Assembly (NCBI GenBank): GCA_964016885.1
Contig: OZ024741.1
Coordinates: forward strand, 15,066,001-15,130,000
Direction of reading: 5' to 3'
DNA length: 64,000 nt
DNA from: Eledone cirrhosa
Taxonomy: Eukaryota
Below the pieces are notes generated by a model, which worked only from the letters and a program-made list of their open reading frames with translations, made no database searches and had not been told where the DNA came from. Below, in pieces: positions 34,099-63,985 of the stretch (positions are counted from its first letter, which is position 1; every line of letters begins with the position of its first letter). The translations under genes and the position numbers were made by a program.

Positions 34099-34228
34099 AA
34101 GTTATATTTAAAATTGTTGGGTTACAACTAGTAAATATTTATAACTGATATAAAAGCACTCGACAAATATTTGGAGTATATTTACAATATTAAATAAATG
34201 GAAAACTATATTTATAAAACCATATTTA

Positions 34229-34291
34229 TTTCATTATATATATTTCGGGGATATCATATTAACAATATGCTATGCCTTCATCAGACAAAAT
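34229..34291 (-). ncRNA. Minimal hammerhead-ribozyme-like motif, type B (left arm of the inverted repeat)
   Basis: Reverse complement reads CUGAUGA-AGGCAUAGCAUAUU-GUU-AAUAUGAUAUCCCC-GAAA-UAUA-UA. Confidence 0.65.
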
Positions 34292-34648
34292 ACAATATAA
34301 ACAGTTTTATAGATAAATATATTCGACATACCGTAATAAACATCGACTTCATTTGAAGAGGTTTACGCTAGCAGTGAGAATACAGAGAGAAAGAAAGAGA
34401 GAAAAAAAAAGGGAGAAAAAAGAAAGAAAGACAAAACGAAGAAAAGGAAGAAAAAGAAGAAAAAGAAAAAGAAGAAATGCATGGAACAAAATAGAGAGAT
34501 GGAAAAATAGATAAAGCGAAGAGCTTCATGTAAAGAAACAGAAAGAGATATATATATTTGAGAGAGAGGAAATAGAGATAGATACATATATATATATAGA
34601 AAATTAGGTAGTGGGAGGTCATTTTGAGTAAGTGTATCAATGATACAT

Positions 34649-34679
<31 letters not shown>

Positions 34680-36833
34680 TTAGCTCAAGTATTAATGTAA
34701 GGGAGATATATAGAGAGATATAGAGAGATATAGAGAGAGAAAAAATTTAAAAATAGCCAGACATATTCGAGGCGTAGAAAACCCTATGTTTTAATGTATT
34801 AGTATTTATAAAACTTACACTATATTGTAAATATCAGTATTCCTGAATGAAACAAGTATCCATAATGTGTGAAAATTCATTATCTTATGTTTAGTTTTAA
34901 AAAATTCATATGTTTATGTGACAGCTACAAACATCAATGTGAATCCAACTGATTCACTCTGCAAACTCTAAGTTACCGGAAAACATTCTCAATGTGGTAT
35001 AAAAATTTGAGCGTATTATTATTCTTGCGATTACTCTACAAGATTATCTATCAAGCAGAAATAGAGAGCAGATTTCAATATACCAATCAAAAATATATAT
35101 TATATTATAAACAAAACTAAAAATAAAAATAAAAAGATAACAATAATGATAATAATAAGTAAAAATATAGAATAGAAAACTAAAAAAATATATTACGAAA
35201 GAATATTACATAATAAAAATATTGCATATTAAAAATACTACGTATTAAAAAATATTACGTATTAAAAATTTACATATTAAAGATATTAAAAATATTAAAA
35301 ATAAAAATAAAATAAAAATAAAAAATAAAAAATATTATAGAATACTACAATACTAAAAGAATAAAAATAAAAATAAAAATAAAAATAAAAATAAAAATAA
35401 AAATAAAAATAAACCACAAAGAACAACCCTTCAAAGTTAATTGACAATATATTGCCAAGTTCATTACAAGACAAAGCCAAAAATTATCTATCGAATCACA
35501 TCTAGCAAAGAACATCTCAAAAAGATTATGATGTCCAATTATGTCTACATATGTTCCCATATTTAATATAGAAGTTTATCTAGTGTAAGGTTAATTCAAA
35601 AAATTTGGAGCATCGGCTTTTAGGGTAGCTTAATTTTTCATGAGGAATGTTTAGATAAAAATAAATTCCCTTAACCTACGGACAAATTTATTCAGTTGTT
35701 GCAAACATAGATTAAACTCAACGTTTAAATATGAATTTAAATTTAAAATGTAGTATATTTAGTTTGATTTATATTTATATGAGAACTAGCCGATAAATTT
35801 TTTGATTCCTAAATCTTTGATTCCCCCTTTTTACTCTTTTTTTATTGTTTATTTTATTTTATTTATTTTTATTTTTATCTAAACATTCCTCATGAAAAAT
35901 TAAGCTACCCTAAAAGCCGATGCTCCAAATTTTTTGAATTAACCTTACACTAGATAAACTTCTATATTAAATATGGGAACATATGTAGACATAATTGGAC
36001 ATCATAATCTTTTTGAGATGTTCTTTGCTAGATGTGATTCGATAGATAATTTTTGGCTTTGTCTTGTAATGAACTTGGCAATATATTGTCAATTAACTTT
36101 GAAGGGTTGTTCTTTGTGGTTTATTTTTATTTTTATTTTTATTTTTATTTTTATTCTTTTAGTATTGTAGTATTCTATAATATTTTTTATTTTTTATTTT
36201 TATTTTATTTTTATTTTTAATATTTTTAATATCTTTAATATGTAAATTTTTAATACGTAATATTTTTTAATACGTAGTATTTTTAATATGCAATATTTTT
36301 ATTATGTAATATTCTTTCGTAATATATTTTTTTTAGTTTTCTATTCTATATTTTTACTTATTATTATCATTATTGTTATCTTTTTATTTTTATTTTTAGT
36401 TTTGTTTATAATATAATATATATTTTTGATTGGTATATTGAAATCTGCTCTCTATTTCTGCTTGATAGATAATCTTGTAGAGTAATCGCAAGAATAATAA
36501 TACGCTCAAATTTTGATACCACATTGAGAATGTTTTCCGGTAACCTAGAGTTTGCAGAGTGAATCAGTTGGATTCACATTGATGTTTGTAGCTGTCACAT
36601 AAACATATGAATTTTTTAAAACTAAACATAAGATAATGAATTTTCACACATTATGGATACTTGTTTCATTCAGGAATACTGATATTTACAATATAGTGTA
36701 AGTTTTATAAATACTAATACATTAAAACATAGGGTTTTCTACGCCTCGAATATGTCTGGCTATTTTTAAATTTTTTCTCTCTCTATATCTCTCTATATCT
36801 CTCTATATATCTCCCTTACATTAATACTTGAGC

Positions 36834-36864
<31 letters not shown>

Positions 36865-37224
36865 ATGTATCATTGATACACTTACTCAAAATAACCTCCC
36901 ACTACCTAATTTTCTATATATATATATATGTATCTATCTCTATTTCCTCTCTCTCTATATATATATATATCTCTTTCTGTTTCTTTACATGAAGCTCTTC
37001 GCTTTATCTATTTTTCCATCTCTCTATTTTGTTCCATGCATTTCTTCTTTTTCTTTTTCTTCTTTTTCTTCCTTTTCTTCGTTTTGTCTTTCTTTCTTTT
37101 TTCTCCCTTTTTTTCTCTCTTTCTTTCTCTCTGTATTCTCACTGCTAGCGTAAACCTCTTCAAATGAAGTCGATGTTTATTACGGTATGTCGAATATATT
37201 TATCTATAAAACTGTTTATATTGT

Positions 37225-37288
37225 ATTTTGTCTGATGAAGGCATAGCATATTGTTAATATGATATCCCCGAAATATATATAATGAAAT
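37225..37288 (+). ncRNA. Minimal hammerhead-ribozyme-like motif, type B (right arm)
   Basis: CTGATGA at 37232, long helix II (CATATT/AATATG core, two mismatches further out), GAAA at 37270, palindromic AUAUAU in the helix III position. Helix I is imperfect. Confidence 0.65.
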
Positions 37289-37327
37289 AAATATGGTTTT
37301 ATAAATATAGTTTTCCATTTATTTAAT

Positions 37328-37331
<4 letters not shown>

Positions 37332-37406
<75 letters not shown>
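37332..37406. repeat. (TA)n microsatellite abutting the 3' end of the type-B element
   Basis: Seen directly. Confidence 0.95.
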
Positions 37407-46136: not shown

Positions 46137-47553
46137 CAAACAAACACATACACACACATATATATGTATATTTATATATATGTATGTATATATATACATA
46201 TACATGTATATATATATATATGTATATATTACCATAAACGTCACATGACATATTGATGTCTCTTCTTCTTCATCCTCTCAACCTCTTCCTTCCTCCTTTC
46301 CCCACCTATATCGCGCTACACCTATCTTTAACCACCTCCACTTTCTCTATCTCTTTCGTCTTTACCTCTCACTCCCCCCTCATTGCTTCCGCCCCCTTCT
46401 CTCCCCACCTCTCACCACCTCTTCTCTTCTCTCCCCACCTTTCTCCACCTCTCTCCCCACCTCTCCCCACTCCCGTTCTTCCGCTCTTTTTCTCAAGGGA
46501 ACCAGAAAATAGCGGGAAATAAAATGACAGATAATATATATGAATCGAGAAAATGAAAGTAGAACAGTAATTTAAAAATTACAGCCATTTTGTGGTGGGA
46601 AGCGACGGGGAGGACAGCATTGTATTGGTGCTGGTGTCAGTAGTAGATAGTACTGATGGTGATAGTGATGGTGATGGTGATGGTGAGGTGGTGTATTAAG
46701 GGAGGGATGAGAGGAATTATTGGTGAGCTACTTGTGTAGTTGTTACTGGAACAAAAATAAAAGCCACTTTCTATTTCTCAATGTTACCCTAAAGTGTGAT
46801 AAAACACCATTCGATACCATGTTATAATTACTTGCTATGATATCAGTGGCCGCAAAACAAAGTTTATGGTCGGAGGATATATATAAAAACAAATTACTTG
46901 ACGCATTCCTCTTATCTCTTTCATTCCTCAAAAGGAATGAGTTTGTTGTACATAAAAACATTTATTTATTTATTTATTTCTCGATTTATCTCTTTCTTTT
47001 ATTTAATTTATTCATTTATTAACGAGTCGGTGTTACGCATGCGTGAACCAGCGTCACAAAACATTTTTTTTTCACTCCGTGCATTTAATTGGTCGGCGTC
47101 GTAGAAACATAATATAAATATCGGTGGATTACCACCAGTACTGCCACTACCATCATCATCAATACGACAACTACCGCCCCACAATCATCATCACCACCAC
47201 TACATCACCACATTCAGCTCCACTACCACCACTACCACCACTACTACCACAACCACCACCACCATCACCACCAGTATAGAGAAAGAGAAGAAATGGGTGA
47301 GAAATATACAACCGAGGGGGTTGAAGAGGGAAATTAATTAGTTGATTACACATTAACTCACTTTATCCTCGCAGTATATTCAATATTATTATGTTCCTCC
47401 ATTAGATTCAGCATGTAATTATCCATGTTTATATCTGTGTCGGCCGTATATCAAGATATATATATATATATGTCAACTGTTATTTTTATCTAAAGACATT
47501 TTTTTCCAATTCCAACCCATCCGTCCCCTTAATCTATTTTATTTCTCATTCTT

Positions 47554-47589
47554 TCTTCTGATGAAGGGCTACTGTCCGAAACGTTAAGA
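47554..47589 (+). ncRNA. Minimal type I hammerhead ribozyme motif, type A, intact core
   Basis: UCUU-CUGAUGA-A-GGGC-UACU-GUCC-GAAAC-GUU-AAGA: helix I UCUU/AAGA, helix II 4 bp with tetraloop, palindromic AACGUU in place of helix III. Confidence 0.8.
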
Positions 47590-47731
47590 CCCTCTTCCTA
47601 CTATATAAAGCGTTAATCTAATATATATATATATATATATATGTGTAAAAGGTAAACAGAAATAACAACACAATCGGTACAGTATATGGAAGGAATATAT
47701 TAAATTAACGCTTTATATAGTAGGAAGAGGG

Positions 47732-47767
47732 TCTTAACGTTTCGGACAGTAGCCCTTCATCAGAAGA
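47732..47767 (-). ncRNA. Minimal type I hammerhead ribozyme motif, type A, intact core
   Basis: Exact reverse complement of 47554-47589. Confidence 0.8.
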
Positions 47768-48001
47768 AAGAATGAGAAATAAAATAGATTAAGGGGACGG
47801 ATGGGTTGGAATTGGAAAAAAATGTCTTTAGATAAAAATAACAGGTCCATTCATGTTGACATCTCTTGCAAAACTGTTGGTGCTGGTGTTTTGTGTATGA
47901 TTTGTTTTTTTAGAAAAGTGGATGATGGCGCGCGTCTACCTGAAATGGAAAAAAAAAACGTTTTGTAAAAAGAACTATACTTGTGCACGTGCGTAAGCAT
48001 G

Positions 48002-49937: not shown

Positions 49938-50473
49938 TATATATATATATATATATACACACACCCGTATGGTGTAGTTTTATTGACTCATTCCGCTATA
50001 AATACGTGAACAAACATACACACACATACACTCACACACATACACTCACACACACACATACACTCACTATATGAACTAAATAAAGTGCTGTTGATACAAA
50101 CAGATTGTGGGTATCTTTAAAAGTTTATAGTAACTTATCTAGAACTAGCTAAAGGAACTCCCGGGAGTACCACAGAATCCTATGAAATACTTCTCTTCAA
50201 TCCACTCAGAGAATGAAAGACTGTATGAGGGAAATTCGTATTAGTTTCTCGTGATATATGTGAATTAAAGCCCCTTTCTCAATGTTTGTATTCTCTTCGC
50301 AAGAGATAATGTGCTGTTAAATAAACATGGTTTCTTATAAATGTTAGCAGAACATAGAGAATACAAAAGTCCAAGACTGAACCAACTTTCCCTACCATAA
50401 TTCTAATGAAGATTTTCAATTTTGAAAATAATCAAGAATTTACATAATTAACATTCTCATTATTAAACTGATG

Positions 50474-50681
50474 AGGGCGGTGCATTGGCAGTATCGGTCG
50501 AGCGTCACACACCATGCTTTGCTGCATAGAGCTTCGGCCCTTTAGTTTCTGAGTTCAAATCCCGCCGTGGTTAACTTTGCTTTCATCCTTACCTGGTCGA
50601 TAAAATAAAGTCCCACTAACGCACTGGTGTCGATTTAATCGACTTTCCTCACCCCCCAAAATGGAGGCCTTGTGCCTAAAT
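50474..50681 (+). mobile_element. tRNA-derived SINE
   Basis: GGCGGTGCATTGGCAGTATCGG (A-box-like), GAGTTCAAATCCC (B-box), CTTTCATCCTT...GTCGATAAAATAAAGT body and GGCCTTGTGCCT tail. Confidence 0.88.
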
Positions 50682-52999: not shown

Positions 53000-54400
53000 A
53001 ACTTTGATAACTTTGATAGGTTTCGGCCAGTATTGGCCCAGGCCACGTCTAACTTAATAGCACCACCTGGCGAAGTCTTATAAATCAGGGTTTGGGCGCC
53101 GTCGCCCACTCGAGTAGAGAGTTATTGTTTACGGAGGCATATCCGGGTGTAGGGGGCTTATCCGGGATTTCTCGAAGGAATTTGTCCAAAGACTTCTTGA
53201 ACTTGATGGGGTCTGTTTCTGTTTTGATATGTTTTGGTGTAACGTTAAAGAGAGCAGGGCCAATTGAGCTGAAATAATTGTGCCGGATTGTTGTTATGAG
53301 ATGCGAGTGAGATTTTTGTCGTAGGCGGATAAGCACGGGGCCCAAGCCTTGGGTGTACATTAAAGGTGATGCCAACATCATTTGGGCAAAGCTGATGGAA
53401 TATTTTCCACATCATACAGATAATGTAGCGCCCACGGCGACGTTGAAGAGAATAAAGGTTGAGCTTTTCTAATCAACTCCAATAGTCAAGGCCTGTCATG
53501 CCATCTATCTTTTTTGTAATCGATCTTTGGGGTGCTTCAACTTTATGATACTTTGTTTCGTGTGGGGAGATCACAGTGGACAACAGTATTCAAGGTGGGG
53601 TCGGGCGAAAGTGGAGAAGAGAAGGATACCTGTGGATATCTCTCGACTGGAAAGTTCTAAGAATCCAGAAACACATTCTGTGAGCCATGTCAACTTTGCT
53701 GTTTATATGAGTGGCCCAGCTTATGTTGTTGTCCACAATTACTCCCAGGTCTCTGATCTTGTTGGATGCCACTAGAGTTTCACCCGAAGGAAGAGAGTAT
53801 GGTAGTTTCAGGGCATCCTTATCTTCATTCAACAACATATTATTCATCTCTGCCCATTGGATAACAGCCAGTAGGTCTGACTGAAGTCAAGTCTGGTCAC
53901 CCACCTCATTGATGACCCTTTGGAGCTTGGAATCATCTGTGAAGATTCTTATGTTACTGTGCTTGATGATGTCAGTAATGTCATTAATGTAGATGATGAA
54001 AATAAGTGGGCCCAACACAGTGCCTTGTGGGACGCCACTGCTGACTTTGGCAGGGTTTGATATTACTCCTTCGACTACAACATGTTCGGTTCTGTTTGTC
54101 AGGAAACATTTGATCCACTGTAGTAATTTTCCAGAGACACCAATATTGGATAGTTTCTTCAGTAGAATCTTATGATCAACCCTGTCGAAGGCCTTGCTGA
54201 AATCAAGGTAGATAACATCAGTGTTGGAGCCCTCTCCCAAGGCTCTCAAAACATCGTCAAAGTGATGGAGGAGCTGCGATAGGCAGTCCCTTCCATTACG
54301 GAATCCATGTTGGTTGAGTTCAGCAGGCCGTTGCTTTCAAGAAAGTGGGTTATTCATGATCTCACCACCCTCTCAAATACCTTGATAATATGACAGGTGA
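53000..54400 (-). mobile_element. 5'-truncated CR1-like LINE: reverse transcriptase pseudogene plus 3' tail
   Basis: DVIYLDFSKAFDRVDH, SGVPQGTVLGPLIFIIYIND, FTDDSK (YADD motif altered), IRDLGVIVD and FKKSLDKFL..IPDKP, with stops and frameshifts. 3' stem-loop GGCCAATACTGGCC and TATCAAAGT tail repeats. Confidence 0.92.
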
Positions 54401-54521
54401 GTTATATATATATATGAGAACGGATTTTTAAAAATCCGTTTTTAAATTCACTATCCAAGGAAAATTCAACTGATAAGGTATGTTCCTTGGCTATGTCAAA
54501 ATTTATAAAACACACTTTGTA

Positions 54522-54578
54522 TATTATCTGATGAAAGCGTACCAAAGGCTTTTTGGTACCCTTGAAATATATATAATA
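54522..54578 (+). ncRNA. Minimal hammerhead ribozyme motif, type B
   Basis: UAUUA-U-CUGAUGA-AAGCGUACCAAAG-GCU-UUUUGGUACCCUU-GAAA-UAUA-UA-UAAUA: helix I 5 bp, helix II ~12 bp with one C-C mismatch. Confidence 0.78.
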
Positions 54579-54616
54579 GAATAAATATGGTTTTATAAAT
54601 ATAGTTTATTTAATAT

Positions 54617-54710
<94 letters not shown>

Positions 54711-54790
54711 CTGACTATCCAGGAAGCTCCAACCGTTAAGGTTGTCTTTTTTTCCGGGTATGGCAATATTTATTTATAAAACAAATCTGT

Positions 54791-54854
54791 ATTTTATCTG
54801 ATGAAAGCGCACCATAATTTGCCTTGGTTGCCCTTGAAATATGTATAATAAAAT
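54791..54854 (+). ncRNA. Minimal hammerhead ribozyme motif, type B
   Basis: UUA-U-CUGAUGA-AAGCGCACCA-loop-UGGUUGCCCUU-GAAA-UAUG-UA-UAA. Confidence 0.7.
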
Positions 54855-55384
54855 AAATATGGTTTTATAAATATAGTTTCCATTTATTAATATATTGTAT
54901 ATATAAATATACGCATGCATGCAGATACACTTAAACTGCAGAGATGAGTGCACCGATGGAATATTGCGAATGATGTGTGTGTAGGAATGTGTATCTGTGT
55001 ATGTGTGAGTGTGTGTGTATATGTGTGTGTGTATCTATAGTGTCTGTGTTTATGTGTGCGTGTGTATGTATAAGTGTGTGCATGTGTGCGTGTGTATATA
55101 TAAGTGTGTATGTGTGTATGTGTGTGTATTTAATGTGTATGTTATCTAGACCTTTGTAGAGAGCACACCATCCAAAGTAATTCGGTCAAGATATTATTGG
55201 AAGGAAATGTTTGATTGTTCCAGTGAAAGCTTCCCTGATATTCTGGCAGGAATCAAATTTGCTAAATCATTATAAGACACAACTGATAAAAATATTTATC
55301 TATGTTCATCAAAAACCTACGTCTTCCCCAGCAATATGGCGACATTTTATATCGCTACTTAAGGGATTACTGACTCTATTGCTA

Positions 55385-58300
55385 TTGTTGGCGTTGTTGT
55401 TGCAGTGGTGGTTGTGGTGGTTGTGGTGGTTGTGGTGGTTGTGGTGGTTGTGGTGGTTGTGGTGGTTGTGGTTGTTGTGGTGGTTGTGGTGGTTGTGGTG
55501 GTTGTGGTTGTGGTGGTGGTTGTGGTGGTTGTGGTGGTTGTGGTGGTTGTGGTGGTTGTGGTTGTTGTGGTGGTTGTGGTTGTGGTGGTTGTGGTTGTGG
55601 TGGTGGTTGTGGTTGTGGTGGTTGTGGTTGTGGTGGTGGTTGTGGTGGTTGTGGTGGTTGTGCTGGTTGTGGTTGTGGTTGTGGTTGTGGTGGTGGTTGT
55701 GGTGGTTGTGGTGGTTGTGGTTTTGGTGGTGGTTGTGGTGGTTGTTGTTGTTGTGGTGGTTGTGGATGTTGTGGTTTTGGTGGTTGTTGTGGTGGTTGTG
55801 GTGGTTGTGGTGGTTGTGGTTGTGGTGGTGGTTGTGGTTGTTATGGTGGTTGTGGTGGTTGTGGTGGTTGTGGTTGTTGTGGTGGTTGTGGTGGTTGTGG
55901 TGGTTGTGGTTGTGGTGGTGGTTGCGGTGGTTGTGGTGGTTGTGGTGGTTGTGGTGGTTGTGGTTGTTGTGGTGGTTGTGGTGGTTGTGGTTGTGGTGGT
56001 TGTGGTTGTGGTGGTGGTTGTGGTGGTTGTGGTTGTGGTGGTTGTGGTTGTGGTGGTGGTTGTGGTGGTTGTAGTGGTTGTGGTGATTGTGGTGGTTGTG
56101 CTGGTTGTGGTGGTGGTTGTGGTGGTTGTGGTGGTTGTGGTTTTGGTGGTGGTTGTGGTGGTTGTTGTTGTTGTGGTGGTTGTGGATGTTGTGGTTTTGG
56201 TGGTTGTTGTGGTGGTTGTGGTGGTAGTTGTGGTGGTTGTGGTTGTTGTGGTTTTGGTGGTGGTTGTGGTGGTTGTGGTGATGGTTGTGGTGGTTGTGGT
56301 TGTGGTGGTTGTTGTGGTGGTTGTGGTGGTTGTTGTGGTGGTTGTGGTGGTTGTGGTTGTTGTGGTTTTGGTGGTTGTGGTTGTTGTGGTTTTGGAGGTG
56401 GTTGTGGTGGTTGTTGTGGTTTTGGTGGTGGTTGTGGTGGTTGTGGTGGTGGTTGTGGTAGTGGTGCTGGTCGTGGTTGCGGTGGTGGTTGCGGTGGTTG
56501 TGGTGGTGGTTGTGGTGGATGTGGTGGTAGTTGTAGTGGTTGTGGTTGTTGTAGTTTTGGTGATGGTTGGGGTGGTTGTTGTGGTGGTTGTGGTGGTTGT
56601 GGTTGTTGTGGTTTTAGTGGTGGTTGTGGTTGTTGTGGTGGAGGTTGTGGTGGTTGTGGTTATTGTGGTTTTGGTGGTCGTTGTGGTGGTTGTGGTGGTG
56701 GTTGTGATTGTTGTGGTCGTTGTGTTTGTGGTTGTTGTGGTTTTGGAGGTGGTTGCGGTGGTTGTCGTTGTTGAGGTTTTGTTAGTGGTTGTTGTGGTTG
56801 TTGTGGTGGTTGTTGTGGTTGTGGTTGTGGTTGTTGTGGTTGTGGTGGTGGTTGTGGCTGTTGTGGTGGTTGTGGTGGTTGTGGTTGTTGTGCTTTCGGT
56901 GGTTGTTGTGGTTGTTGTGGCTTTGGTGGTGGTTGTGGTTATTGTTGTGGTGGTTGTTGTGGTGGTTGTGGTGGTTGTGGTTGTTTTTGTGGTTGTGGTG
57001 GTTGTGGTGGTTGTGGTTGTTGTGGTTGTTGTGGTTTTGGTGGTGGTTGTGGTGGTTGTGGTGGTGGTTGTGGTGGTTGTGGTTGTTGTGGTTGTTGTGG
57101 TTGTTGTGGTTTTGGTGGTGGTTGTAGTGGTTGTGGTGGTGGTTGTGGTGGTTGTGGTTGTTGTGGTTGTTGTGGTTTTGGTGGTGGTTGTGGTGGTTGT
57201 GGTGGTTGTTGTTTTGGTGGTGGTTGTTTGTGGTTGTGGTGGTGGTTGTGGTGGTTGTGGTTGTTGTGGTGGTTGGGGTCGTGGTTGTGGTGGTTGTGGT
57301 TGTTGTGGTTGTTGTGGTTTTGGTGGTGGTTGTGGTGGTGGTGGTGGTTGTGGTGGTTGTGGTGGTTGTGGTTGTTGTGGTGGTTGTGGTTGTTGTGGTG
57401 GTTGTTGTGGTTGTTGTGGTGGTTGTGGTGGTTGTGGCGGATGTGCTTGTTGTGGTGGTTGTAGTGGTTGTGGTGGTGGTTGTGGTTGTTGTGGTGTTTG
57501 TGGTGGTTGTGGTTGTTGTGGTGGTTGTGGTGGTGGTTGTGGTTGTTGTTGTGGTTTTGGAGGTTGTGGTTGTTGTGGTGGTGGTTGTGGTAGTTGTGGT
57601 GGTTGTGGTGATTGTGGTTGTTATGGTTGTTGTAGTGGTTGTGGTGGTGGTTGTGATTGTTGTGGTGGTTGTGGTGGTTGTGGTTGTTCTTGTGGTTGTG
57701 GGGTTGTGGTTGTTGTGGTTGTTGTGGTTGTTGTGGTTTTGGTGGTGGTTGTGGTGGTTGTGGTGGTTGTGGTGGTGGTTGTGGTGGTTGTGGTTGTTGT
57801 GATTTTGGTGGTGGTTGTGGTGGTTTTGGTGGTGGTGGTGGTGGTTGTGGTGGTTGTGGTTGTTGTGGTTTTGGTAGTGGTTGTGGTAGTTGCGGTGGTG
57901 GTTGTGGTGGTTGTGGTTGTTGTGGTTTTGGTGGTGGTTGTGTTGGTTGTGGTTGTTGTGGTGGTTGTGGTGGTTGTGGTTGTTGTGGTTGTTGTGGTTG
58001 TGGTGGTGGTTGTGGTGGTGCTGGTTTTTGTGGTTTTGGCGGTGGTTGTGGTTGTTGTGGTTGTTGTGGTTGTTGTGGTTTTGGTGGTGGTTGTGGTGGT
58101 TGTGGTGGTTGTCGTTTTGGTGGTGGTTGTGGTGGTTGTGGTGGTGGTTGTGGTGGTTGTGGTTGTGGATTTGGTGGTGGTTGTGGTGGTTTTGGTGGTT
58201 GTGGTGGTGGTTGTGGTGGTTGTGGTTGTTGTGGTTTTGGTAGTGGTTGTGGTAGTTGTGGTGGTGGTTGTGGTGGTTGTGGTTGTTGTGGTTTTGGTGG

Positions 58301-61300
58301 TGGTGGTTGTGTTGGTTGTGGTTGTTGTGGTGGTTGTGGATGTTGTGGTTTTGGTGGTGGTTGTGGTGGTTGTGCTGGTAGTTGTGGTGGTTGTGGTTGT
58401 TGTGGTTTTGGTGGTGGTTGTGGTTGTTTTGGTTCTGCTGGTGGTTGTGGTGGTTGTTGTGGTGGCTGTGGTGGTTGTGGTTGTTGTGGATTTGGTGGTT
58501 GTCGTTGTTGTGGTTTTGGAGGTGGTTGTGGTGGTTGTTGTGGTTTTGGTGGTGGTTGTGGTGGTTGTTGTGGTTTTGGTGGTGGTTGTGTTTGTTGTGG
58601 TGGTGGTTGTGGTGGTGGAGCTGGTTGTGGTTGTGGTGGTGGTTGCGGTTGTTGTGGTGGTGGTTGTAGTGGTTGTGGCGGTAGTTGTGGTGATCGTGGC
58701 TGTAGTTTTGGTGGTGGTTGTGGTGGTTGTGGTGGTGGTTGTGGTGGTTGTGGTTGTTGTGGTTTTGGTGGTGGCTGTCGTTGTTGTGGTGGAGGTTGTG
58801 GTGGTTGTGGTTATTGTGGTTTTGGTGGTGGTTGTGGTGGTGGAGCTGGTTGTGGTTGTGGTGGTGGTTGCGGTGGTTGTGGTGGTGGTTGTAGTGGTTG
58901 TGGTGGTAGTTGTGGTGGTTGTGGTTGCTGTAGTTTTGGTGGTGGTTGTGGTGGTGGTTGTGGTGGTGGTGGTTATTGTGGTTTTGGAGGTGGTTGTGGT
59001 GGTTGTTGTGGTTTTGGTGGTGGTTGTGGTTGTTGTGGTGGTGGTTGTGGTGGTGGAGCTGGTTGTGGTTGTGGTGGTGGTTGCGGTTGTTGTGGTAGTG
59101 GTTGTAGTGGTTGTGGCGGTAGTTGTGGTGGTTGTGGTTGCTGTAGTTTTGGTGGTGGTTGTGGTGGTGGTTGTGGTGGTGGTGGTTATTGTGGTTTTGG
59201 AGGTGGTTGTGGTGGTTGTTGTGGTGGTTGTGGTGGTGGTTGTGGTTGTTGTGGTTTTGGTGGTGGCTGTCGTTGTTGTGGTGGAGGTTGTGGTGGTTGT
59301 GGTTATTGTGGTTTTGGTGGTGGTTGTGGTGGTGGAGCTGGTTGTGGTTGTGGTGGTGGTTGCGGTGGTTGTGGTGGTGGTTGTAGTGGTTGTGGTGGTA
59401 GTTGTGGTGGTTGTGGTTGCTGTAGTTTTGGTGGTGGTTGTGGTGGTGGTTGTGGTGGTGGTGGTTATTGTGGTTTTGGAGGTGGTTGTGGTGGTTGTTG
59501 TGGTTTTGGTGGTGGTTGTGGTTGTTGTGGTGGTGGTTGTGGTGGTGGAGCTGGTTGTGGTTGTGGTGGTGGTTGCGGTTGTTGTGGTGGTGGTTGTAGT
59601 GGTTGTGGCGGTAGTTGTGGTGATCGTGGCTGTAGTTTTGGTGGTGGTTGTGGTGGTTGTGGTGGTGGTTGTGGTGGTTGTGGTTGTTGTGGTTTTGGTG
59701 GTGGCTGTCGTTGTTGTGGTGGAGGTTGTGGTGGTTGTGGTTATTGTGGTTTTGGTGGTGGTTGTGGTGGTTGTGGTGGTGGTTGTGATTGTTGTGGTCG
59801 TTGTGGTTGTGGTTTTGGAGGTGGTTGCGGTGGTTGTCGTTGTTGAGGTTTTGTTAGTGGTTCTTCTGGCTGTTGTGGTGGTTCTGGTGGGTGTGTTTGT
59901 AGTGGTTGTGGTTGTTGTGGTTGGTGTGGTCGTGGTGGTGGTTGTGGTGGTTGTGGTGGTGGTTGTGGTGGTTGTGGTTGTTGTGGTTTTGGTGGTGGCT
60001 GTCGTTGTTGTGGTGGAGGTTGTGGTGGTTGTGGTTATTGTGGTTTTGGTGGTGGTTGTGGTGGTTGTGGTGGTGGTTGTGATTGTTGTGGTCGTTGTGG
60101 TTGTGGTTTTGGAGGTGGTTGCGGTGGTTGTCGTTGTTGAGGTTTTGTTAGTGGTTCTTCTGGCTGTTGTGGTGGTTCTGGTGGGTGTGTTTGTAGTGGT
60201 TGTGGTTGTTGTGGTTGGTGTGGTCGTGGTGGTGGTTGTGGCTGTTGTGGTGGTTGTGGTGGTTGTGGTTGTTGTACTTTCGGTGGTTGTTGTGGTTGTT
60301 GTGGCTTTGGTTGTGGTTGTGGTTATTGTTGTGGTGGTTGTTGTGGTGGTTGTGGTGGTTGTTGTGGTGGTTGTGGTGGTTGTGGTTGTTGTGGTGGTTG
60401 TGGTGGTTGTGGTTGTTGTGGTTGGTGTGGTTTTGGTGGTGGTTGTGGTGGTTGTGGTGGTAGTTGTATGGTTGTGATTGTTGTGGTTGTTGTGGTTGTT
60501 GTGATTTTGGTGGTGGTTGTGGTGGATTTGGTGGATTTGGTGGTTTTGGTGGTTGTGGTGGTTGTGGTGGTGGGTGTGGTGGTTGTGGTTGTTGTGGTTG
60601 TTGTGGTGGTTGTGGTGGTTGTGGTGGTGGTTGTGGTGGTTGTGGTTGTTGTGGTTGTTGTGGTCGTGGTGGTGGTTGTGGTGGTGCTGGTTGTTTTGGT
60701 TTTGGCGGTGGTTGTGGTTGTTGTGGTGGTTTTGGTGGTTGTGGTGGTGGTTGTGGTGGTTGTGGTCGTTGTGGTTTTGGTAGTGGTTGTGGTAGTTGTG
60801 GTGGTGGTTGTGGTGGTTGTGGTTGTTGTGGTTTTGGTGGTGGTTGTGTTGGTTGTGGTTGTTGTGGTGGTTGTGGATGTTGTGGTTTTGGTGGTGGTTG
60901 TGGTGGTTGTGATGGTAGTTGTGGTGGTTGTGGGTGTTGTGGTTTTGGTGGTGGTTGTGGTGGTTGTGGTGATGGTTGTGGTGGTTGTGGTTGTTTTGGT
61001 TCTTGTGGTGGTTGTGGTGGTTGTTGTGGTGGTTGTGGTGGTTGTGGTTGTTGTGGATTTGGTGGTTGTGGTTGTTGTGGTGGTGGTTGTGGTGGTGGAG
61101 CTGGTTGTGGTTGTGGTGGTGGTTGCGGTGGTTGTGGTGGTGGTTGTAGTGGTTGTGGTGGTAGTTGTGGTGGTTGTGTTTGTAGTTTTGGTGGAGGTTG
61201 TGGTGGTTGTGGTGGTGGTTGTGGTGGTTGTGGTGGTTGTGGTTGTTGTGGTTTTGGTGGTCGTTGTGGTTCGTTGTGGTGGTGGTTGTGATTGTTGTGG

Positions 61301-63985
61301 TCGTTGTGGTTGTGGTTTTGGAGGTGGTTGCGGTGGTTGTCGTTGTTGAGGTTTTGTTAGTGGTTGTTGTGGCTGTTGTGGTGGTTGTGGTGGTTGTGTT
61401 TGTAGTGGTTGTGGTTGTTGTGGTTGGTGTGGTCGTGGTGGTGGTTGTGGCTGTTGTGGTGGTTGTGGTGGTTGTGCTTGTTGTACTTTCGGTGGTTGTT
61501 GTGGATGTTGTGGCTTTGGTGGTGGTTGTGGTTATTGTTGTGGTGGTTGTTGTGGTGGTTGTGGTGGTTGTTGTGGTGGTTGTGGTGGTTGTGGTTGTTG
61601 TGGTGGTTGTGGTGGTTGTGGTTGTTGTGGTTGGTGTGGTTTTGGTGGTGGTTGTGGTGGTTGTGGTGGTGGTTGTATGGTTGTGATTGTTGTGGTTGTT
61701 GTGGTTGTTGTGGTTTTGGTGGTGGTTGTGGTGGTGGTGGTGGTTGTGGTGGTTGTGGTGGTTGTGGTTGTTGTGGTGGTTGTGGTGGTTGTGGTGGTTG
61801 TTGTGGTTGTTGTGGTGGTTGTGGAGGTTGTGGTAGTTGTGGTGGTGCTTGTGGTTGTTGTGGTGATTGTGGTGGTTGTGGTTGTTGTGGTGGTTGTGGT
61901 GATTGTGGTGGTGGTTGTGATTGTTGTGGTGGTTGTGGTGGTTGTGGTTGTTCTTGTGGTTGTGGTGGTTGTGGTTGTTGTGGTTTTGGTGGTGGTTGTG
62001 GTGGTTGTTGTTGTTGTGGTGGTGGTTGTGGTTGTTGTGGTTTTGGTAGTGGTTGTGGTAGTTGTGGTGGTGGTGGTGGGGGTTGTGGCTGTTGTGGTTT
62101 TGGTGGTGGTTGTGGTGGTTGTGGTTGTTGTGGTGGTTGTGGTTGTTGTGGTTTTGGTGGTGGTTGTGGTGGTTGTGGTGGTAGTTGCTGTGGTTGTTGT
62201 GGTTTTGGTGCTGGTTGTGGTCGTTGTGGTGATGGTTGTGGTGGTTGTGGTTTTGGTGGTGGTTGTGGTGGTTGTGGTGGTTGTGGTTGAGGTGGTTGTT
62301 GTTGTTTTGGTGGTGGTTGTGGTGGTTGTGGTGGTGGTGCTGGTTGTGGTTGCGGTGGTGGTTACGGTGGTTGTGGTGGTGGTTGTGTTGGTTGTGGTGG
62401 TAGTTGTGGTTGTGGTTATTGTGGTTTTCGTGGTGGTTGTGGTGGTTGTGGTGGAGGTTGTGGTGGTTGTGATTATTGTGGTTTTGGTGGTGGTTGTGGT
62501 GGTTGTGGTGGTGGTTGTGATTGTTGTGGTCGTTGTGGTTGTGGTTGTTGTGGTTGTTGTGGTTGTTGTGGTTGTGGTGGTGGTTGTGGTTGTTGTGGTG
62601 GTTGTGGTGATTGTGGTTGTTGTGCTTTCGGTGGTTGTTGTGGTGGTTGTGGTTGTTGTGGTTTGGTGGTGGTTGTGGTGGTTGTGGTGGTGGTTGTTGT
62701 GGTTGTGGTTGTTGTGGTTTTGGTGGTGGTTGTGGTGGTTGTTGTGGTTGTTGTTGTGGTTGTGGTTGTTGTGGTTTTGGTGGTTGTGGTTACTGTGGTT
62801 TTGGAGGTGGTTGTGGTGGTTGTAGTTGTTGTGGCTTTGGTGGTGCTTGTGGTTGTTGTTGTGGTGGTTGTTGTGTGGTTGCGGTGGTTGTGGTTGTTGT
62901 GGTTGTGGTTGTTATGGTTGCTGTGGTTGTGGTGGTGGTTGTGGTGGTTGTTGTGGTGGTTTTGTTGTTGTGGTTGTTGTAGTTTTGGTGGTTGTGTTTG
63001 CTGTGGTTTTGGAGGTGGTTGTGGTGGTGGTGGTTGTTATGGCTTTGTTGGTGGTTGTGGTTGTTGTTGTGGTTGTTGTTGTGGTTGTTGTGGTGGTTGT
63101 GGTGGTGGTTGTGGTGGTTGTGGTTGTTGTGGTGGTTGTGGTGGTTGTGGTTGTTGTGGTTGTTGTGGTTTTGGTGGTGGTTGTGGTCGTTGTGGTGGTG
63201 GTTGTGGTTGCGGTGTTCGTGGTTGTTGTGGTTTTGGTGGTGGTTGTGGTCGTTGTGGTTGTTGTAGTTTTGGTGGTGGTTGTGGTGGTTGTGGTGGTGG
63301 TTGTGGTGGTTGTGGTTGTTGTTGTTTTGGTGGTGGTTGTTTGTGGTTGTGGTGGTGGTTGTGGTGGTTGTGTTTGTTGTAGTTGTTGTGGTGGTTGTGG
63401 TGGTTGTGGTAGTGGTTGTGGTTGTTGTGGTTGTTGTGGTTTTGGTGGTGGTTGTGGTGGTTGTGGTGGTGGTACTATTGGTTGTGGTTTTGGTGGTGGT
63501 TGTCGTGGTGGTTGTCCTGGTTGTGGTTGCTGTGGTTTTGGTGGTGGTTGTGGTTTTTGTGGATTTGGTGGTGGTTGTGGTGGTTGTGTTGGTGGTTGTG
63601 GTGGTTGTGGTGGTGGTTGTGGTTGTTGTGGTTGTTGTGGTTTTGGTGGTGGTTGTGGTGGTTGTTGTTGTTGTGGTTTTGGTGTGTTTGTGGTGGTTGT
63701 GCTGGTTGTGGTTGTTGTGGTGGTTGTGGTTGTTGTGGTTTTGGTGGTGGTTGCGGTGGTTGTGGTGGTGGTTGTGGTGGTTGTGGTTGTTGTGGTTTTG
63801 CTGGTGGTTGTGGTGGTTGCGGTGGTGGTTGTGGTGGTTGTGTTGGTTGTGGTTTTGGTGGTGGTTGTGGTGGTTGTGTTGGTTATTGTGGTTCTACTGG
63901 TGGTTGTTGCAGTTATTGTGGTTTTGGTGGTGCTTGTGGTGGTTGTGGTTGTTGTGGTGGTTGTGGTTTTGGTGGTGGTTGCTAA
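55385..63985. repeat. ~8.6-kb GGT/GTT/TGT-derived complex satellite
   Basis: Triplet-based low-complexity array with local block duplications (TGAGGTTTTGTTAGTGGTTCTTCTGGCTG at ~59844 and ~60138, 294 bp apart). Confidence 0.96.

What the first reader, a model, noticed from the sequence alone, without database searches (positions are those of the whole stretch)
54449..54899. Tandem type-B dimer that could release a 270-nt RNA containing an (UA)n tract
Seen: two same-strand hammerhead motifs lie exactly 270 nt apart (CTGATGA at 54528 and 54798). Their helix II sequences differ (GUACCAAA/UUUGGUAC versus GCACCA/UGGUUGC) but both pair, and a third version exists at 37232. An upstream hairpin CCAAGGAA...TTCCTTGG precedes the first motif. 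Established: tandem minimal hammerheads cleave as dimers, and retrozyme monomers of a few hundred nt circularise. Inference: read-through transcription could yield a ~270-nt linear or circular RNA carrying ~85 nt of (UA)n.
Basis: partly seen in the sequence, partly recalled or inferred. Interest (0 to 1): 0.75.

Follow-up and report, generated by a model that had tools for sequence, protein, structure and literature searches.

The report
Nested Penelope retrotransposon ends with hammerheads
The two hammerhead (predicted self-cutting RNA) motifs are real, but they are the tail ends of two subfamilies of a very common jumping gene, the younger of which likely landed in the TA repeat behind the older, so this is an ordinary one-off nesting and not a shown circular-RNA element.

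Summary
The two CTGATGA cores, both helix IIs, the upstream hairpin and an 87-nt TA tract are as described; predicted cut-to-cut length is 272 nt, not 270. Each motif is the 3' end (pLTR) of a 5'-truncated Penelope-like element. The 54798 type sits 1.3-1.9 kb behind a Hydra-clade RT/GIY-YIG ORF in 6 of 6 ORF-bearing loci examined. The genome has 12,061 exact cores. The two copies are only 73% alike, differ in apparent age (1 versus 10 differences from nearest sampled relative), and each has its own 5' inversion. The TA-to-second-copy junction occurs once in 3.0 Gb. The 41 same-strand pairs in the genome have flat spacing, 193-465 nt, so there is no retrozyme unit. A cross-subfamily double hammerhead can be drawn and is the cheapest fold that cuts both sites, but its modelled share is at most 0.001, and a rare substitution shifts the first motif into a fold that pairs its cut site. 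No RNA data were available. Verdict: new family of a known kind; the tandem is likely a chance nested insertion; release of a (UA)n RNA is possible but unsupported.

The parts
53085..54400 (-). Left flank: broken LINE-type reverse transcriptase fragment, cut off at its 5' side next to the TA run; not part of the elements
   Evidence: ORF pieces; Pfam RVT_1 E=3.3e-18 for 53890-54336; the name CR1/L2-like is from recall
54403..54415 (.). Short (TA)n run, left remnant of the likely target site
   Evidence: sequence; target role inferred
54419..54440 (+). 22-bp palindrome: short 5' inversion at the truncation point of the older copy
   Evidence: relatives carry different sequence here
54430..54621 (+). 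Older copy (m1): 3' end/pLTR of a 5'-truncated Penelope-like element, ending at the short 3' end
   Evidence: (91-95% to best relatives), (10 differences from nearest sampled relative)
54455..54490 (+). Upstream hairpin CCAAGGAA/TTCCTTGG in the 3' UTR
   Evidence: present in the m1 subfamily
54520..54583 (+). Hammerhead m1: helix I 54520-27/54576-83, core 54528-34, helix II 54535-63, GAAA 54564-67, helix III AUAUAUAU 54567-74, predicted cut after A54575; carries a T>A change at 54523 relative to the family helix I strand
54622..54708 (.). (TA)43.5 tract: tail of m1 and likely target of m2
   Evidence: family copies end in (TA)n
54708..54713 (+). 6-bp 5' inversion (TTCCTG, complement of 54720-54725) at the truncation point of the younger copy
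   Evidence: junction unique in the genome
54714..54897 (+). Younger copy (m2): 3' end/pLTR of a 5'-truncated Hydra-clade Penelope-like element
   Evidence: 98-99% to relatives; 1 difference; same motif behind RT-EN ORFs
54790..54855 (+). Hammerhead m2: helix I 54790-97/54848-55 (8 Watson-Crick pairs), core 54798-804, helix II 54805-35, GAAA 54836-39, helix III AUAUGUAU, predicted cut after A54847
54576..54847 (+). Hypothetical 272-nt product of double cleavage (not shown to exist)
   Evidence: inference
54898..54905 (.). Short (TA)n after m2, right remnant of the likely target
37224..37289 (+). Third subfamily hammerhead (m3), right arm of an inverted pair whose partner core is at 34284 on the minus strand

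Best explanation
The region holds the hammerhead-bearing 3' ends of two subfamilies of a Penelope-like retrotransposon, and it likely arose when a younger, 5'-truncated copy inserted into the TA tail of an older one. Shown: both ends belong to dispersed high-copy families that end in (TA)n; the m2 type flanks an RT plus GIY-YIG ORF with Hydra-clade motifs; the two copies differ by 27% and each has its own 5' inversion; the unit between them is unique. Inferred: the element's endonuclease nicks (TA)n, reverse transcription starts at one of two fixed sites about 100 or 190 nt behind the core, stops early and folds back, giving a short end with a small inversion; because every insertion leaves or enlarges a TA tract, later copies land beside earlier ones. 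The hammerhead's likely job is in the full element (cut 194 nt before the ATG), probably weak and helped by protein; at this locus it is a passenger. The (UA)n would lie in any read-through RNA only because it was the target.
For:: 12,061 exact cores; m2 relatives 98-99%, m1 relatives 91-95%; 6 of 8 fetched loci gave an ORF of 400 aa or more with the linker motif, and all 6 have a same-strand family hammerhead 1.3-1.9 kb downstream; L083 has pLTR-tail-741-aa ORF-pLTR-(TA)n. RWR/RWK-type motif in 20 of 21, DKT 20 of 21, CxxC..E 21 of 21, CxH 21 of 21 aligned proteins; best folds are RTs, TERT at rank 2; m1 vs m2 49 differences; nearest relatives 10 vs 1; junction 1 match; m1's downstream deletion has 5 matches, none of the 4 others followed by an m2 copy; 41 pairs, spacing 193-465, not different from flat (KS p=0.43 on the 40 spacings of 220 or more), about 7 expected from uniform placement; of 30 pairs fetched, 27 have 10 or more TA letters between, 25 differ at 6 or more places, 4 at 2 or fewer; the window's unit is at most 69% like any other. 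PMC8557442 section 11: Hydra elements insert into (TA)n and carry hammerheads.
Against: The m1 subfamily was not itself traced to an ORF; its link rests on the shared hammerhead, downstream box, tail and upstream motif. Age estimates come from only 40 scored candidates of 1024 (m2) and 2623 (m1), so a closer m1 relative may exist. Target-site duplications cannot be read inside TA, so two events are inferred, not shown. The helices are compatible across subfamilies and the dimer is the cheapest fold that cuts both sites (8.6 vs 14.6 kcal/mol), so occasional double cleavage is not excluded. Same-strand pairs are about 5.6-fold over uniform expectation, which fits targeting but would also fit weak selection for pairs.
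Confidence: 0.85

Rival explanations
1. One reading: read-through transcription lets the two motifs fold as a cross-subfamily double hammerhead, which releases a 272-nt RNA with an 87-nt (UA)n hairpin that is circularised in vivo (a proto-retrozyme). Compatible with the nested origin; the question is whether it happens at a detectable level.
For: Swapped helices pair: m2 5' strand with m1 3' strand gives 8 pairs with one G-U; the two helix III strands give 8 pairs. Cost 8.6 kcal/mol for two junctions at 37 C against about 5.3-5.9 for one family-typical junction. The TA tract folds on itself and the 272-nt piece folds as a rod. Axolotl hammerheads with weak helix III cleave much better as dimers and give circles (PMC7229834, passages).
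Against: Unconstrained ensemble: swapped helix I pairs at most 0.001; m1 sits 0.87-1.00 in a slipped register that pairs its cut site; cost rises to 11-16 kcal/mol at 25-15 C. Each motif is closed locally by a further 11-12-bp helix. m1 ranks 74th of 78 motifs for ease of folding. No re-inserted copy of the unit. No promoter evidence; both copies are 5'-truncated. Penelope minimal hammerheads cleave poorly even as dimers (PMC4209133); the anole one needs protein and no RNA-seq ends were seen at its cut site (PMC11167929). ViennaRNA ignores core tertiary contacts, so these shares are underestimates.
Confidence: 0.08
2. One insertion event: the reverse transcriptase jumped between two RNAs (or the partial tandem typical of Penelope elements formed) so that both ends arrived together.
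For: Partial tandems are standard for these elements (PMC8557442); 4 of 30 fetched pairs are near-identical twins.
Against: The two copies are from different subfamilies with different apparent ages, each has its own inversion, and pure TA rather than element tail lies between them; a normal partial tandem joins pLTR to tail and ORF, as in L083.
Confidence: 0.05
3. Member of a true non-LTR retrozyme family with a unit of about 270 nt whose copies have diverged.
For: Size and low GC fall in the published range (150-450 bp; PMC7229834); retrozymes derive from pLTRs (10.64898/2026.07.22.740005).
Against: Flat spacing, heterogeneous units, no array: 41 pairs at 193-465, 14 closer, 8 at 468-517 among 12,061 cores; at most two loci with three copies in the list.
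Confidence: 0.02

Closest known systems
Hydra clade of C-terminal EN+ Penelope-like elements (Craig et al. 2021, PMC8557442; section 11, passages, supplementary Files S1, S2 and parts of S4/S7 seen)
   Same: Single ORF with RT then GIY-YIG-type endonuclease, DKT, CxCX5C linker, CxxC and CxH around E and N, (TA)n insertion, 5' truncation with inversion, optional tail, type I hammerhead at the 3' end.
   Different: RWR for RWK; about 3.9 kb with a 1.4-kb 3' UTR (published members mostly under 3 kb); tail about 93 nt against 30-40 bp; helix III all A-U (AUAUAUAU) where the listed Hydra hammerheads have a C-G second pair; helix II long with a C-C mismatch at pair 4. The hammerhead differs from the one listed for Hydra-1_oBim, so this is another family.
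[quoted passage not shown]
   Same: Type I, long helix II, short palindromic helix III suited to dimers, mostly single dispersed copies, close pairs often on opposite strands, many subfamilies with covariation.
   Different: m1/m2 have A10.1-U11.1 with no extra base before helix II (published consensus G-C with an extra base); helix I is 8 pairs plus an 11-12-pair extension rather than 4-5.
Animal non-LTR retrozymes (Cervera and de la Pena 2020, PMC7229834, passages; Li et al. 2026, 10.64898/2026.07.22.740005, part 1 and passages)
   Same: Two same-strand type I hammerheads a few hundred nt apart, low GC, pLTR origin.
   Different: Retrozymes are repeats of one unit forming families and arrays with shown circular RNA; here two 73%-identical ends joined by a microsatellite, once in the genome, no RNA evidence.
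Anole Poseidon element PAc (Frangieh et al. 2024, PMC11167929; parts 1-2 of 4 read)
   Same: Two internal RT start sites define the tail; AT-rich target; hammerhead in the pLTR region.
   Different: Other clade; its cut lies inside the ORF start, here 194 nt before the ATG; here both 3' ends fall at short UA-like stretches that match the target.

Membership tests
Hydra-clade PLE | Single ORF, RT followed by C-terminal GIY-YIG endonuclease | tested here: met
   741-aa ORF in L083; IVY..YVG with R, H, E, N read by eye; RT folds top the PDB search. Pfam gave no significant hit; the endonuclease domain was not searched alone.
Hydra-clade PLE | RWK motif and DKT motif | tested here: met
   DKT at residue 122 of the frame; RWR in this copy, RWK in most homologues
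Hydra-clade PLE | CxCX5C linker; CxxC and CxH around E and N; no CCHH | tested here: met
   CNCRNKSNC, CSLCVEE, CKH; only one Cys inside the GIY-YIG core, by eye
Hydra-clade PLE | Insertion into (TA)n | tested here: met
   55 of 58 relatives show a run of 4 or more TA units in the stretch scanned behind the 3' end
Hydra-clade PLE | Hammerhead in the pLTR | tested here: met
   6 of 6 ORF-bearing loci; m2 type. m1 subfamily not traced to its own ORF.
Hydra-clade PLE | Generally short (<3 kb) | tested here: not met
   about 3.9 kb in L083 owing to a 1.4-kb 3' UTR; described as a tendency, not a rule, in PMC8557442
Hydra-clade PLE | Placement in the Hydra clade by RT phylogeny | not tested
   Published Hydra proteins were only compared by eye; no tree with them was built
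Type I hammerhead (dimer-type) | Core CUGANGA, GAAA, UH and three helices | tested here: met
   the tally regex itself required a near-core
Type I hammerhead (dimer-type) | Short self-complementary helix III | tested here: met
   AUAUAUAU (m1), AUAUGUAU (m2); 78 of 87 distinct motifs have one of the two
Type I hammerhead (dimer-type) | G10.1-C11.1 with an extra base after A9 | tested here: not met
   A-U in 14 of 17 rows; published Hydra motifs also vary here
Type I hammerhead (dimer-type) | Self-cleavage | not testable with these tools
   needs in vitro assay
Non-LTR retrozyme | Tandem copies of one unit | tested here: not met
   73% identity, different subfamilies
Non-LTR retrozyme | Family of units of fixed length, dispersed or in arrays | tested here: not met
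   (exact 17-nt core only)
Non-LTR retrozyme | Hammerhead in each unit | tested here: met
   the first is predicted misfolded
Non-LTR retrozyme | Expressed as linear and circular monomer RNA | not testable with these tools
   needs RNA data for this organism

The most novel reading that the evidence does not exclude
Because this element targets its own TA tails and its subfamilies keep interchangeable helix I and palindromic helix III strands, nested insertions keep creating cross-subfamily double hammerheads of random length (41 exact-core pairs here). This locus would be one such newborn retrozyme, releasing a 272-nt circle with a 40-bp (UA) hairpin that still carries the first RT start site: a direct view of how retrozymes are born from Penelope ends.
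Probability: 0.08. Interest if true: 0.55.

Novelty: new member of a known kind. Interest (0 to 1): 0.17.

Why it matters
As found, it matters little: it is one of dozens of likely chance nestings of a common retrotransposon end. Of modest use: an abundant, young Hydra-clade family with an all-A-U helix III, a long extended helix I and two fixed 3' ends, and a set of natural pairs that could test whether hammerheads of different subfamilies cleave as heterodimers. If such pairs did yield circles, they would show the step from Penelope end to retrozyme, which is so far argued from phylogeny only.

Tried and rejected
Rfam: no hammerhead hit; only microsatellite-driven miRNA noise. CTGATGA count in the window (15 vs 5.6 expected) is inflated by 8 hits in the 24-bp satellite and was not used. 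Registers with 4 or 5 nt between GAAA and helix I were considered and rejected: they give no UH site or mismatched helix I; the 8-nt register pairs in all subfamilies. RNA evidence: no RNA holder listed; three contig runs of unrecorded kind, one sample, were laid on the full element and on 54200-54621; they cannot show RNA ends and do not cover the junction at 54410-54439, so nothing is drawn from them about expression or presence. Shortening the TA tract in silico did not favour the dimer (9.0 vs 8.6 kcal/mol). Dimer energies for the 30 fetched pairs: 15 not parsed and several implausibly high, so not used beyond noting the window pair (8.5) is among the lowest of the 15 computed (lowest 7.5). 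Pfam on the element's ORF gave nothing significant. A possible splice donor upstream of the motif was considered; no intron-like joint appeared, left open. Lunse et al. (PMC5785218) could not be read; known only through the review PMC6765202 (passages). Literature searches; none listed a paper on this family, which does not cover Repbase, Dfam or subscription journals. No earlier scan notes near the locus or by sequence.

Full report
Observation. The sequence matches the description. Read in the register that pairs in all subfamilies, each motif is a type I hammerhead: helix I of 8 pairs, core CUGAUGA, a long helix II that begins AAG/CUU and has a C-C mismatch at pair 4, GAAA, helix III from a palindromic 8-mer, and a UA cut site. 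Predicted cuts fall after 54575 and 54847, 272 nt apart. On 17 representatives that I chose from the clusters, 96.5% of cells pair, three helix II pairs change on both sides, helix I varies by G-U wobbles, and slid controls give 37-55%. Rfam does not detect the motif.

What the motifs belong to. The window lies in a 3.0-Gb animal genome; the host is not established here. The second motif has relatives at 98-99% (40 scored of 1024 candidates), the first at 91-95% (40 of 2623). The exact 17-nt core occurs 12,061 times, reversed control 0. Relatives are 5'-truncated at varied points, often with inverted copies at the 5' side, and end in (TA)n at one of two fixed places about 100 or 190 nt behind the core. 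Walking upstream led to a reverse transcriptase-endonuclease ORF. Of 8 loci chosen for long open frames, 6 printed an ORF of 400 aa or more with the linker motif and all 6 have the motif 1.3-1.9 kb downstream on the same strand. L083 is complete in layout: hammerhead, tail, 741-aa ORF, 1.4-kb 3' UTR, a damaged second hammerhead, (TA)n. Its protein has RWR, DKT, CxCX5C, CxxC..E and CxH, the marks given for the Hydra clade in PMC8557442 section 11, shared with 20 aligned homologues of the 31 found. The model (pLDDT 83.9) matches reverse transcriptases, with telomerase RT at rank 2. The published Hydra proteins look alike by eye, but the listed hammerheads differ from this one. The m1 subfamily was not traced to its own ORF.

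Why the two are adjacent. They differ at 49 places (73%); m2 is 1 change from its nearest sampled relative and m1 10. Each begins with its own short inversion. The junction of the TA tract with m2 occurs once in the genome. The deletion that marks m1's 3' side has 5 matches, and none of the other 4 is followed by an m2 copy. Genome-wide there are 41 same-strand pairs of exact cores within 167-467 nt, against about 7 for uniform placement, with spacings spread flat from 193 to 465; 14 more lie closer and 8 at 468-517. Of the 30 pairs fetched (30 of 41), 27 have TA between, 25 differ at 6 or more places, and no unit resembles the window's above 69%. This is what an element that targets (TA)n and leaves (TA)n behind would produce; the review PMC6765202 (passages) also notes that these elements tend to insert into or beside earlier copies. 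I infer two insertions, m1 first.

Could it still release an RNA? For: the swapped helices pair across subfamilies, the TA tract folds on itself, and the double hammerhead costs 8.6 kcal/mol at 37 C for two junctions, less than two monomers (14.6) and not far above one typical junction (median 5.3-5.9). Against: in the free ensemble the swapped pairs reach at most 0.001, each motif is closed by a further local 11-12-bp helix, the cost rises to 11-16 kcal/mol at 25-15 C, and a T>A change seen in 1 of 87 distinct motifs tallied (and in one more row) puts m1 at 0.87-1.00 into a slipped register that pairs its cut site; m1 ranks 74 of 78. The model lacks tertiary terms, so only the comparisons carry weight. 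Published minimal Penelope hammerheads cleave weakly even as dimers (PMC4209133); the anole one cleaves only with protein, is dispensable for insertion in vitro, and showed no RNA-seq ends at its site (PMC11167929). Axolotl retrozyme dimers do cleave well and circularise (PMC7229834). No expression data could be brought to bear.

Comparison and verdict. It works like the pLTR hammerheads of Penelope-like elements and is, for m2, a member of the Hydra clade on every motif tested except length, with no tree built. It is not a retrozyme: two defining features failed. Notes of other agents on similar pairs reach similar readings; they are leads, not support. One reports a 469-bp retrozyme in this genome; no array of that period has this core. 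Supplements of the bioRxiv paper were not seen and might list related families. Score 0.17; the heterodimer circle is kept at 0.08.

Noticed in passing
L083:2340-2445; 58 loci: Two fixed 3' ends about 93 nt apart (36 short, 22 tailed by script; one short call, L049, looks tailed), in all three subfamilies seen. The tail is about three times the 30-40 bp in PMC8557442. Both ends fall at short UA-like stretches, and each is followed by a similar CTC...GAG(T/C)(G/A)CT motif that resembles the 3' ends of Hydra-2_Amil and Hydra-2_Ajap: a candidate RT recognition signal.
   Followed up: partly
window 54497-54600, 54767-54875, 37207-37310 (approx.): Helix I continues past an internal loop into an 11-12-pair A-U helix (TTTATAAAAC with GTTTTATAAA) in all three subfamilies; it explains the conserved AT-rich box and would favour local folding.
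   Followed up: partly
window 34100-37340: A 3.2-kb near-perfect inverted pair of m3-subfamily 3' UTRs; the minus-strand arm (core at 34284) ends with the tail, the plus-strand arm (37232) without it.
   Followed up: partly
window 47477-47844: Inverted pair (150-nt arms, 99%) of an unrelated minimal hammerhead: extra A, G-C first pair, ACGU palindrome, cores at 47558 (+) and 47763 (-).
   Followed up: no
window 53085-54400 (-): Broken LINE-type RT whose 5' truncation abuts the TA run that the Penelope ends occupy.
   Followed up: partly
window 50468-50561: The CTGATGA here has no hammerhead; it abuts a tRNA-like, SINE-like repeat also seen inside and beside family copies in L003, L005, L006, L023. 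SINE label from recall.
   Followed up: no
window 3-5106, 6502-32186, 55393-63981: Large satellites: 24-bp unit (208 copies), 41-bp unit (615 copies, 25.7 kb) and a GTG/GTT-rich array with strong strand skew and long open frames.
   Followed up: no
G000:C1063:14058-14563; G000:C26:20151167-20151828; L098: Two three-copy runs and one exact 340-bp twin of the family's hammerhead end: the best local candidates for incipient retrozymes.
   Followed up: no
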